From Eledone cirrhosa (lineage: Eukaryota), in NCBI GenBank assembly GCA_964016885.1, contig OZ024757.1, positions 36,580,001 through 36,644,000 on the forward strand: a DNA stretch of 64,000 nucleotides, in the 5' to 3' direction. This document shows, piece by piece, positions 18,218 through 21,200 of this stretch (positions are counted from its first letter, which is position 1; the number at the start of each line of letters is the position of its first letter). The notes under the pieces are model-generated. The model was not told where the DNA came from and did not search any database. It saw only the letters and a list, made by a program, of their open reading frames with translations. The translations under genes and the position numbers were made by a program.

Positions 18218-21200
18218 TCCACAAATACCAATGAAGAGAGAGAGGAAGACACACATATTTCTACAAACACTAATAAAGTGAGTGAGAGAGAGAGAGAGCC
18301 AGCGAAAATAGTTGTGTGGACATACCAGTGTTATCTGTAGGTTAATAGTTCGTAGCTCCAGGTCTAACCTCTCACCATCAGTGCTGGCTATCTGAGATTG
18401 TTGGGCCAACTGTGACAATTCCTTCTTGATCTTGCTGTTGCTTTTCTCTTGCAAGCTGAAATAAACAACAAACAAAACATTTTATTAAATCCCCCAATGT
18501 ATAACAGGCATGCATGTGTGGTCCTATAACTCCAAAGAATAGATGGGGCACTGTACTGACATACAGCGTTTCTAGGGCATTTTCTTTTAAACCTGGCGGA
18601 GCCCATCTCCTCACCAGGTCTGAATACAAAGGATTTCTTGCAGAGAAAGAGAGGAAGCGAGAAAGAGATATTAGAAGATGAATTGACCCCAGTACTAGAC
18701 TGGTACTGTTTATATCTACCTTGAAATGAAAGGCAAAGTTGACTTTGGCGAGATTTGAACTCAGAGAATGAACAGATAGAGCCAGAACGAATACTGCAAA
18801 GCATTCTATCTGACGTTCTAACGAGTCTGCTAGCTCGCTGACCATAACAGGTATAAAAAGAGAAAAAACAATCTCCTTACATCGGTCAAATATCTCAACT
18901 ACATCTACGTAAGTTCTACACTCGTTACCTGAGAGGTGAGGTTTTATAAACGACCCACATTGATATGTCATTGTTACCTGAGAGGTGAGGTTTTATAAAC
19001 GACCCATGTTGATATGTCATTGTTACCTGAGAGGTGAGGTTTTATAAACGACCCATGTTGATATGTCATTGTTACCTGAGAGGTGAGGTTTTATTAATGA
19101 CCCAAGTTGATATGTCATTGTTACCTGAGAGGTGAGGTTTTATAAACGACCCATGTTGATATGTCATTGTTACCTGAGAGGTGAGGTTTTATTAATGACC
19201 CACATTGATATGTCATTGTTACCTGAGAGGTGAGGTTTTATTAATGACCTACATTGATATGTCATTGTTACCTGAGAGGTGAGGTTTTATAAACGACCCA
19301 TGTTGATATGTCATTGTTACCTGAGAGGTGAGGTTTTATATAATATCCCTTCTTACCTTTCTTGGTAGTCCCAAAGTGTGTATGGTTCGTCTTGACTGGT
19401 TGAGTTTTCCATTTCCTCAGCTGAATCATCAATGGTCTCTGGCAAACTAGACACAAATGGTTTGGCATCCGGTCGCAGCTGGCTCTGATTAGAGGTCGTT
19501 ATCACAATGTTCTTGTAACTGGTTGGTGCTAAAGACGAGCTGACCATATAATTGTGTTCGTAGGGGGTGGACGCCATGGCAGGGAGCACCTGAGAGGTGT
19601 TCTTTCAGACAAAAGAAAATCAATCATTATCATCAATATCAACATGATCATGATCATCATCAACAACATCATGATCATCATCAATGTTTAATGTCTAATT
19701 TTATATGCTTACATGGGTTAGATGGGTTTTCAAATGAAGAGGCCAGTCAGGTCAAGTGACCATGTCTTGCTCATGTGTTCCCTTTTTGGCCTGGTCTACT
19801 ATGGCCCCTATGAGCAAGACAGTCATGTCTGACCTGTCTAGTCTCACAACGTGACAACCACACTAAGCCAGTGGTTACCACCATTGGTGGTCCAGGAGAA
19901 AATTTTAATATATTTATCTTTATACAAAAATTCATATTAGTGGTCAGTGGGATTGAAAATTATGAATTTAGTGGTCCATGAGGTCCGAAAGTTTGGTGAC
20001 CGCTGCTCTAAGCCATGCAAGAATGGAAAATATAAAATGGTGGTTATTAGAACAGAATCCATCTTACCCCTTCGGCTGTAACTTGGACAGGGCAAGTTAT
20101 TTTATCTTTCACCTTGGTACGAGAAATGGGACCAAATTTCGACACAATCGGTGGATCAAAGGGAATGAAGTCATCATTCTCACCATGGGAATGTCTGGAA
20201 AGGAAAAATACAACAAACACATTGGTATAGAAAAGGTGTGTGTATAGGGGTCTAGTGTAGAATAAGAAGAAGTGTAGTGTCCAAGAAAGAAGACTGAGCT
20301 GGTATAGACATATCAGCCATATATGTATGATTGAAGAACAATGGGTGAAGAATGGCCAGGAGTTCCTAGTAAAAGGAAGCTGTCGTAGTGTAGTTCGGTG
20401 GAGGGGAAACTGTGCTGGAAAAGACATGTCCAACCCATGCCAGCATGGAAAAGTAGATGTAAAAAGGATAACACCACATCCCAGTTTGTTGTGGGAGGTG
20501 ACTAACAGGGGTATCTGGTTTAAAATAGGTACACTGTATCCTTGTGGGTCATAAGAGGTGACTAACAGGGGTATCTGGTTTAAAATTGAACCCTATATAC
20601 TTGGGTGTTGTAAAAAAAAAGGTAACAAGGTGATAGGGTAGAAAGAAGAGACTTTATAAACTAGGTGAAAATAATGTTGTTAAGAAAAGAATACCTGGAA
20701 AAATCTTCTCTGGAATCCTCATAGAGATCTTTCTTTGGAGAGTCAATAGCAGTAAATATATTGAACACAGAGGAATGGTCCTGAAAACAGATATAGATTG
20801 GAGATTGAAACTAACACAGAACATTGAAGAAACATGTATGTATGACTGTGTGTGTGTGTGCACATACACATACACACATATATCATCATCACCGTTTTAC
20901 GTCCATTCTTCCACGCTAGCATGGGTTAGACGGGTTGTCCTGTTGTGGGCAGTGTCCGGTCGGCTGACCTTGTCTTGCTCATGCAGGAACTGATTCTGGC
21001 TTGATTTCTACAGCTGGATGCCCTTCCTAACACCAACTTCATTTACAGTGAGTGCTGGGTGCTTTTTTGCCGTGGCACCTCCACGACCACTTTGCAGTGG
21101 AATGATATGGACCTCAGTCCTATCATCTCATTTCTACAGCTGAGTAAACTAGAGCAATTAGAAATAAAGTGTCTTGCTCAAGGAAACAACACATCATCTG

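What the first reader, a model, noticed from the sequence alone, without database searches (positions are those of the whole stretch)
19440..19490. PAM2-like motif in the Roquin C-terminal tail
Seen: exon 14 encodes [12 protein letters not shown]. Known: the PAM2 consensus is approximately S-x-L-N/S-x-x-A-x-E/P-F-x-P and it is the ligand of MLLE domains. The L, A and F anchor residues have the right spacing here; the final P is S. Inference: this Roquin may dock on PABP MLLE directly, which is not part of the standard Roquin mechanism (CCR4-NOT recruitment). It could also be a ligand of the tandem-MLLE protein encoded ~30-40 kb away.
Basis: partly seen in the sequence, partly recalled or inferred. 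Interest (0 to 1): 0.7.

Follow-up and report, generated by a model that had tools for sequence, protein, structure and literature searches.

The report
PABP-docking-like motif in mollusc Roquin
The octopus version of Roquin, a protein that marks messenger RNAs for decay, carries in its variable tail a conserved but imperfect copy of the short peptide used to dock on poly(A)-binding protein, and clams, scallops and mussels carry a similar peptide at a different spot, so mollusc Roquins likely (untested) also grip the mRNA tail.

Summary
Observation confirmed. Minus-strand bases 19484-19449 encode [12 protein letters not shown] in coding exon 14 of a 17-exon, 1146-aa octopod Roquin; a contig of run X4 splices this exon as modelled. 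Pfam PAM2 is its only hit, below cut-off (13 bits, cut-off 20). The three anchors alone are weak (4% per shuffled tail); conservation carries the case: the 12-mer is invariant in all cephalopod rows (62% tail identity). The site is absent at this position in other molluscs, but 10 of 24 non-cephalopod mollusc rows carry a PAM2-like word elsewhere (bivalves LNP[YF]AEP[FW]); 0 of 162 mostly vertebrate rows do. A complex prediction with a stand-in PABP MLLE gave weak support (0.41, best control 0.02). Best reading (0.55): a low-affinity PABP-MLLE docking site added to CCR4-NOT recruitment, as in Unkempt and HELZ. The neighbouring tandem-MLLE gene is real and spliced, but its first domain differs at 11 of 18 pocket positions; unlikely partner. 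No Roquin PAM2 found in my literature searches or in this scan's earlier notes.

The parts
19449..19484 (-). PAM2-like motif [12 protein letters not shown] (Roquin aa 995-1006; L997 = PAM2 position 3, A1001 = 7, F1004 = 10); 'site B'
   Evidence: invariant Q994-V1005 in cephalopod rows; Pfam PAM2 13 bits
19357..19601 (-). Roquin coding exon 14 (245 nt)
   Evidence: AG/GT and phase; spliced to exons 13 and 15 in a contig of run X4
16321..31094 (-). Roquin (RC3H) gene, 17 coding exons, 1146 aa: RING, ROQ, CCCH finger, long variable tail
   Evidence: 91% identical to Octopus vulgaris P0001; Pfam domains of P0001
23184..23213 (-). [10 protein letters not shown] (aa 682-691), 'site A': aligns under the bivalve word LNP[YF]AEP[FW] but has T at the Ala position and lacks Asn; TDPWKK invariant in cephalopods
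   Evidence: no Pfam hit
22789..22836 (-). Tail helix [16 protein letters not shown] (aa 738-753), conserved across molluscs; used as positional landmark
   Evidence: helix in model
20119..20175 (-). Conserved tail word [19 protein letters not shown] (aa 920-938, exon 13); positional landmark 75 residues upstream of the motif
59407..59675 (+). Neighbouring tandem-MLLE gene, coding part of first exon: divergent MLLE1
   Evidence: Pfam MLLE E 9.4e-09; pocket comparison; contig of X4
62499..62598 (+). Neighbouring tandem-MLLE gene, second exon: start of a second MLLE-like domain, ending at KITG; the rest was not found in the window
   Evidence: in-frame splice; joined to 59675 in a contig of X4

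Best explanation
[quoted passage not shown] Shown: the motif is in a spliced coding exon, is invariant in cephalopods and keeps L3, P5, A7 and F10. Inferred from solved PAM2-MLLE structures: L997 would fill the helix 3/5 pocket, P999 the turn pocket, A1001 would pack on the MLLE Met and F1004 would fill the helix 2/3 pocket; R998 might replace the Asn contact to the MLLE Glu by a salt bridge (speculative); lack of P12 would lower affinity. Inferred by analogy with Unkempt and HELZ: the contact would tune where Roquin sits on mRNAs or how fast it deadenylates rather than being needed for decay. Across molluscs the docking word appears at different tail positions in different lineages, i.e. independent gains or relocation; the order of events is not resolved.
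For: (1) The four determinants that PMC2854688 ranks as main (hydrophobic 3, P/V 5, invariant A7, F10) are met (parts 1-2 of 4 read). (2) Q994-V1005 is identical in all 12 cephalopod rows of 374 proteins scored, across 62% tail identity; 12 of about 650 12-residue windows beyond the post-finger run are invariant (41 of 689 in all, 29 of them in that run); the island spans PAM2 positions 0-11 and the next 50 residues are mostly variable. (3) Pfam PAM2 is the only family hit by the 22-mer (13 bits, E 0.087). (4) Independent of how this site was picked: 10 of 24 non-cephalopod mollusc rows carry L-x-[PVT]-x-A-x-[EP]-[FW] in the tail (13 of 27 with cephalopods; local shuffles mean 0.06, max 1); permuted patterns average 0.2 of 26 rows. 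A pattern-free ranking puts SNLNPYAEPF third among conserved bivalve tail words and the octopus motif fifth among words shared with other molluscs. The bivalve word fits LNxxAxx[F/W] and shares L, N, P, A, E, W with the LARP4B PAM2w (PMC7356810). Amphioxus has STLNSKATPFFP in 7 of 8 cluster members. (5) Complex of a 32-residue exon-14 peptide with a stand-in animal-type PABP MLLE (locus L075): weak support, score 0.41, best of 3 controls 0.02; runs agree in at least 89% of contacts, partner pLDDT at least 55; the mark was reached by 51 of 78 solved and 2 of 108 mismatched pairs, but at 0.60 or under by only 5 of 78 solved and all 4 mismatches that passed (of 180); eukaryote counts 39 of 65 and 2 of 126; peptides untested; PAM2-MLLE complexes are solved, so the pass may be from memory. 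(6) Precedent: the Unkempt PAM2-like motif departs from the ELM pattern at one position and its deletion releases PABPC (passages).
Against: Position 4 is R where N or S makes the turn hydrogen bond and contacts MLLE E587, and position 12 is S (L in P0003/P0130) where P contacts F567. Pfam score is below the curated cut-off of 20 and whole-exon or whole-protein scans give no PAM2 hit; the bivalve, gastropod and amphioxus 22-mers give no Pfam hit at all (0 of 6). No PDB chain matches the peptide. The cephalopod rows are only two deep lineages and half of the tail is invariant among them; islands of equal length and unknown meaning exist (aa 769-781, 710-719). The bivalve rows share ancestry and count as about one event. 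14 of 27 mollusc rows lack the word (3 oyster genera, Solemya, Dreissena, Haliotis, Gigantopelta, Babylonia, Littorina, Candidula, and 4 heterobranchs with K or S at the Ala position), so it is dispensable. No binding was measured.
Confidence: 0.55

Rival explanations
1. The motif is a functional linear motif for a different partner that reads L-x-P-x-x-x-P-aromatic; the likeness to PAM2 is incidental or ancestral.
For: Every mollusc and amphioxus word has P at position 9, where PAM2 prefers E, while the 'invariant' Ala is K in Bulinus, Biomphalaria and Physella, S in Aplysia and V in Dreissena; a bulky residue there is sterically unfavourable on MLLE. L-x-P-x-x-x-P-[FWY] is in 17 of 27 mollusc rows (shuffles mean 0.7, max 3). 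Cephalopods keep [YF]TDPWKK at site A without L3/A7.
Against: A7 is kept in all 13 rows of cephalopods, autobranch bivalves and Batillaria; N4 in the bivalves; heterobranch words sit at another position and may be unrelated or decayed. The looser pattern also hits 19 of 162 mostly vertebrate rows, so it is not very specific. No such partner is known to me.
Confidence: 0.22
2. Chance look-alike with no docking function, conserved only because the cephalopod Roquin tail evolves slowly.
For: Three anchors arise in 4% of shuffled tails and 20 times in the window's six frames; the site was picked by eye from a genome-wide scan; two consensus positions fail; 50% of tail positions are invariant among the five cephalopod rows; absent at this position outside cephalopods.
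Against: Five-element match 0.1% per tail and unique in the window; the invariant island coincides with the PAM2 frame; best matches in other species are again PAM2-like words in Roquin tails; one allele difference seen inside the motif (runs X2, X3, position 19467) is synonymous (low depth, could be an error).
Confidence: 0.13
3. The main partner is another MLLE protein: the E3 ligase UBR5/HYD, or the neighbouring tandem-MLLE protein.
For: UBR5 MLLE binds classical PAM2 peptides and MLLE domains differ in specificity (PMC11572963 passages). The neighbour is real, spliced in the same run X4 as Roquin, and a divergent pocket could suit a divergent motif; it has H at the F567 position that contacts P12, which the motif lacks.
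Against: Neighbour MLLE1 changes Q560, E564, F567, G579, M584, I588, K606, E609, A610, V613, H617, all conserved in 30 of 30 PABP-type rows except one Y at 567; G579 is needed for backbone approach. Genomic nearness is no evidence in animals (general knowledge); an unrelated ankyrin/SOCS gene lies between. UBR5 was not examined.
Confidence: 0.08

Closest known systems
PAM2 motif (Pfam PF07145; eRF3 PAM2-N, Paip2, ataxin-2, Tob) bound to PABPC1 MLLE (PDB 3KUI, 3KUJ; PMC2854688)
   Same: L3, P5, A7, F10 spacing; polar residues at 1-2; V at 11 as in eRF3 PAM2-N (V77); low-complexity S/T-rich setting.
   Different: R at 4 instead of N/S, S or L at 12 instead of P, P at 9 instead of the preferred E; 13 bits against a cut-off of 20; binding unmeasured.
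Unkempt PAM2-like motif (PMC11009413; bioRxiv 10.1101/2023.09.20.558714)
   Same: RING plus CCCH RNA-binding protein whose disordered region holds CCR4-NOT motifs and a non-canonical PAM2; the closest functional model.
   Different: Unkempt departs from the ELM pattern at one position and its PABPC link is shown by deletion; here two departures in Octopus and no experiment.
HELZ PAM2 (PMC6769256)
   Same: CCCH protein with an unstructured C-terminal half that binds CCR4-NOT and, through PAM2, PABPC1.
   Different: Canonical and conserved PAM2; its F1107V mutant still degrades a tethered reporter, a warning that such a site can be dispensable for decay.
LARP4B PAM2w (PDB 3PTH; PMC7356810)
   Same: L-N-P-x-A-E-x-W matches the bivalve Roquin word LNP[YFC]AEPW at six positions.
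   Different: Concerns site A of bivalves, not the octopus site; no G after W, no Pfam hit for the bivalve peptides.
Roquin-1/2 and Drosophila Roquin (PMC5303829)
   Same: Same RING-ROQ-CCCH core; variable tail acting through short motifs that can be gained and lost.
   Different: Described tail motifs bind CAF40 and the NOT module; that paper has no occurrence of 'PAM2'; 0 of 162 mostly vertebrate rows carry the word.

Membership tests
Roquin (RC3H) | RING, ROQ and CCCH domains in the N-terminal half | tested here: met
   RING on exon 1; ROQ, ROQ_II, zf-CCCH on the 91%-identical P0001
PAM2 | Hydrophobic residue (usually L) at position 3 | tested here: met
   L997
PAM2 | Polar N or S at position 4 | tested here: not met
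   R998 in all cephalopod rows
PAM2 | P, V or T at position 5 | tested here: met
   P999
PAM2 | Invariant A at position 7 | tested here: met
   A1001
PAM2 | E preferred at position 9 | tested here: not met
PAM2 | F (or W) at position 10 | tested here: met
   F1004
PAM2 | P usual at position 12 | tested here: not met
   S in the window and Octopus rows, L in P0003/P0130
PAM2 | Pfam PF07145 above gathering score | tested here: not met
   13 bits, E 0.087, cut-off 20 on the 22-mer; no hit on exon or whole protein
PAM2 | ELM LIG_PAM2_1 regular expression | tested here: inconclusive
   Only a recalled version could be run: no match for any cephalopod row, match for W-type bivalve rows; the expression was not found in text
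PAM2 | Lies in a disordered, accessible region | tested here: inconclusive
   Coil with pLDDT about 30 in the P0001 model, but the model is poor throughout, the ROQ domain included (mean 42.6); FoldIndex -0.09, 31% S/T
PAM2 | Binds an MLLE domain | not testable with these tools
   Only a weak prediction, 0.41 against best control 0.02, with a stand-in domain
PABP-type MLLE (neighbour MLLE1) | KITGMLLE signature and PAM2 pocket residues | tested here: not met
   Pfam MLLE is met but the signature reads KITGILLE and 11 of 18 contact positions differ

The most novel reading that the evidence does not exclude
Mollusc Roquins have repeatedly acquired a direct PABP link that vertebrate and fly Roquins lack, and cephalopods let an older docking site (aa 682-691) decay while building a new one about 310 residues downstream: a natural series of PAM2 birth, drift and death in one regulator, including an Arg-4 variant that widens the PAM2 code.
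Probability: 0.3. Interest if true: 0.62.

Novelty: new variant of a known kind. Interest (0 to 1): 0.42.

Why it matters
Roquin is described as recruiting CCR4-NOT through lineage-specific tail motifs; a PABP contact would put it in the class of adaptors that hold both the deadenylase and the poly(A) tail (Unkempt, HELZ, Tob). The mollusc set (with site B, with site A, with none) gives ready-made peptides to test how much a PABP contact adds to Roquin repression and whether R at position 4 is tolerated. A specialist would find it a plausible, modestly new extension rather than a shock.

Tried and rejected
No whole genome is held for this window, so the organism's own PABPC and UBR5 could not be read and an unnamed animal-type MLLE was used as stand-in. 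Tail-only homology search found just 3 proteins among 1907 candidates; it is insensitive and not evidence of absence. My first MLLE self-search was out of frame and was discarded. RNA run search: no RNA holder listed; X4 is of unrecorded kind and was read only for what its contigs join. LDDDAATF hits in fly-type Roquins have L/A/F spacing but are the fly form of the conserved word before S-K-[FY]-G-P-I, not counted as PAM2. The RING-domain word LHRKACPF in vertebrates matches L/A/F but is in a folded domain and was excluded. P0325 (labelled Acipenser, tail 103 aa) was not counted among molluscs. The AlphaFold model was too poor to test disorder or to send to a fold search. The tree (46 rows, N-terminal region only; Aplysia, Tegillarca records other than P0121, isoforms and most representatives left out) supports the five cephalopod rows as a clade (100/99) but does not resolve mollusc classes, so no order of motif gain and loss was inferred. 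The Atlas look-up of neighbour MLLE1 gave generic MLLE clusters with recognition below its threshold. Earlier-findings look-ups by place and sequence were empty.

Full report
Observation. The peptide is on the minus strand at 19484-19449. From the raw sequence I built 17 coding exons between 31094 and 16321, all with GT-AG junctions and consistent phase, giving one 1146-aa ORF with the motif leucine at residue 997 in exon 14. The protein is 91% identical to Octopus vulgaris Roquin P0001 and identical to none of 277 proteins then held; it is an octopod Roquin with RING, ROQ and CCCH domains. A 3684-nt contig of run X4 covers exactly exon 14 and continues into exons 13 and 15.

Fit to PAM2. PMC2854688 (parts 1-2 of 4 read) defines hydrophobic 3, N/S 4, P/V 5, invariant A7, preferred E9, F10 as the most important residue, and usually P12. 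The octopus word meets 3, 5, 7 and 10 and misses 4 (R), 9 (P) and 12 (S). Pfam gives nothing for the exon or for 15 whole Roquins; on a 22-mer PAM2 is the only hit, 13 bits against a cut-off of 20. It should be filed as PAM2-like, not as a PAM2 member.

Conservation in cephalopods. [12 protein letters not shown] is identical in O. vulgaris, O. sinensis, O. bimaculoides and the unnamed rows P0003, P0130 and their cluster mates (12 rows of 374 scored; names). P0003 and P0130 group with Octopus (100/99) but share only 62% tail identity with the window. The run is printed as 13 through gap placement; alignment A3 shows 12. 41 of 689 12-residue windows are invariant, 29 of them in the 40-residue run after the finger; the island covers PAM2 positions 0-11 and the following 50 residues are mostly variable. 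Against this, half of all tail positions are invariant in these five rows, they are two deep lineages, and two other islands of similar length have no known meaning.

Other molluscs. At the same position (75 residues after the [19 protein letters not shown] landmark) no non-cephalopod row has the word. But elsewhere in the tail, upstream of the conserved helix, autobranch bivalves carry LNP[YFC]AEP[FW] (Tegillarca, three scallops, Mytilus, Sinanodonta, Potamilus, Mya, Mactra, and unnamed P0121, P0135, P0322, P0335), and Batillaria and P0338 carry QSDLDP[DQ]APPFAP near the end of a short form. One row per genus or lineage: 13 of 27, 10 of 24 without cephalopods, against a local-shuffle mean of 0.06; 120 permuted patterns average 0.2 of 26 rows, and the only permutation that ties is the one swapping the two P positions. 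Among 87 of 150 cluster representatives with a recognisable finger and tail, 4 have the five-element word (shuffle mean 0.16, reversed 0), all molluscs or in mollusc clades. 0 of 162 rows that are nearly all named vertebrate records, with many isoforms, have even the three anchors. A ranking that uses no PAM2 pattern places the bivalve word third among conserved bivalve tail words, and the octopus motif fifth among octopus words shared with other molluscs, its best partners being those displaced words. Amphioxus has STLNSKATPFFP (7 of 8 cluster members). Misses: oysters, Solemya, Dreissena (V at the Ala), Haliotis, Gigantopelta, Babylonia, Littorina, Candidula; Bulinus, Biomphalaria and Physella have LDPEKPPFIP and Aplysia LDPDSSPYFP. 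None of six non-octopus 22-mers hit Pfam. The bivalve rows are about one evolutionary event, so the unascertained evidence is two to three events, not ten. In an alignment the cephalopod [YF]TDPWKK falls under the bivalve word; whether it is a decayed PAM2 or an older Y-x-[ED]-P-W word on which bivalves built a PAM2 cannot be told, since Solemya has the short form too and the tree does not resolve classes.

Complex prediction. With an animal-type PABP MLLE from unnamed locus L075 and 32 residues of exon 14, the verdict was weak support: 0.41, best of 3 controls 0.02, runs agreeing in at least 89% of contacts, partner pLDDT at least 55, alignments not used. The mark was reached by 51 of 78 solved and 2 of 108 mismatched pairs, but at 0.60 or under by 5 of 78 solved and all 4 passing mismatches of 180; peptides are untested and like complexes are solved, so it shows likeness only.

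The neighbour. A plus-strand gene has a Pfam MLLE at 59407-59675 spliced in frame to the start of a second MLLE-like domain at 62499-62598, a join seen in a contig of X4. MLLE1 keeps 7 and changes 11 of 18 PABP contact positions named in PMC2854688 and PMC7356810, G579 and F567 among them. MLLE2 is incomplete in the window and untested. Nothing links it to Roquin but distance.

Mechanism. Most likely (0.55) Roquin binds stem-loop mRNAs through ROQ (known for the family), recruits CCR4-NOT through tail motifs (shown for human and fly, PMC5303829; inferred here) and adds a weak PABP-MLLE contact through this motif (inferred). In Unkempt such a contact sets the protein's position on 3' UTRs (PMC11009413, 7 passages; preprint, 12 of 37 passages); in HELZ it is dispensable for tethered decay (PMC6769256, 6 passages). 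Rivals: a different partner reading L-x-P-x-x-x-P-aromatic (0.22), chance (0.13), another MLLE protein (0.08).

Literature. Searches for Roquin with PAM2, MLLE, PABPC1, PABP, mollusc terms and linear-motif terms were seen as listings. Passages read: PMC5303829 (12 of 27; 'PAM2' 0 times), PMC10157403 (12 of 17), PMC12350847, bioRxiv 2025.09.27.678968 (9), PMC11639669, PMC11572963 (12 of 29); PMC7356810 parts 1-2 of 5. None describes a PAM2 in any Roquin. Subscription papers, including older PAM2 surveys that I recall, are outside the library; figures and supplements (the ELM expression in the Unkempt supplement, the alignments of PMC2854688 Fig. 1A and PMC5303829 Suppl. Fig. 4) were not seen and may bear on the position-4 and position-12 tolerance. 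The scan's earlier notes hold no Roquin PAM2.

Verdict. Real, conserved, non-canonical PAM2-like motif; new variant of a known kind; binding untested; interest 0.42.

Noticed in passing
window 59325-59675 and 62499-62598 (+): Spliced gene with two divergent MLLE domains in tandem and no RRM seen in the window; MLLE1 has a changed PAM2 pocket. Tandem MLLE is described for fungal Rrm4; I did not establish what this animal gene is.
   Followed up: partly
window 20119-20175 (-): The tail word ending S-[KR]-[FWY]-G-[PA]-I-S is present in 51 of 87 representative Roquin tails and 148 of 162 mostly vertebrate rows, and in fly-type form, although PMC5303829 says Roquin tails share no similar motifs; partner unknown to me.
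   Followed up: partly
window 22789-22836 (-): Amphipathic-looking tail helix (L..L..RR.EIL) conserved in molluscs, Lingula, myriapods, hemichordates and amphioxus; candidate CAF40/CNOT9-type or other docking helix (inference).
   Followed up: no
window 23184-23213 (-): Cephalopod TDPWKK invariant run aligned with the bivalve PAM2-like site; W-containing, could serve a tryptophan pocket (inference).
   Followed up: partly
P0133/P0295 about residue 1065: Unionid Roquins have LDPLMEPYSLW about 80 residues after the landmark, where octopus has LRPDAKPF then, 23 residues later, EPYTLW; site B might have arisen from such a word by insertion (speculative).
   Followed up: no
P0178 and P0338: A short caenogastropod Roquin form that ends in a PAM2-like word where other gastropods have the tail helix; paralogue, isoform or gene-model artefact not settled.
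   Followed up: partly
window 50137-51768 (-): Long single ORF with ankyrin repeats and a C-terminal SOCS box (ASB-type E3 adaptor), between Roquin and the MLLE gene.
   Followed up: no
window 19589-19601 (-): Exon 14 has a second in-frame AG 12 nt downstream; X4 and homologues use the 19601 acceptor. P0128 has a 10-residue insertion at this junction, hinting at alternative splicing in relatives.
   Followed up: partly
window 19467: A>G difference in contigs of runs X2 and X3, a synonymous change in the motif's Asp codon; depth under 5.
   Followed up: yes
window 18930-19340, 26700-27480, 28140-28620, 33300-34900, 53780-54830: Intronic and intergenic tandem arrays (about 46-nt unit right after exon 14); ordinary for octopod DNA.
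   Followed up: no
window 1-3300 and 60577-61224: Broken LINE-type retroelement fragments (endonuclease/reverse transcriptase-like and zinc-knuckle-like frames; labels from recall).
   Followed up: no
P0325: Record labelled Acipenser ruthenus Roquin-2 ranks among mollusc sequences in the profile search; possible mislabel or contamination.
   Followed up: no
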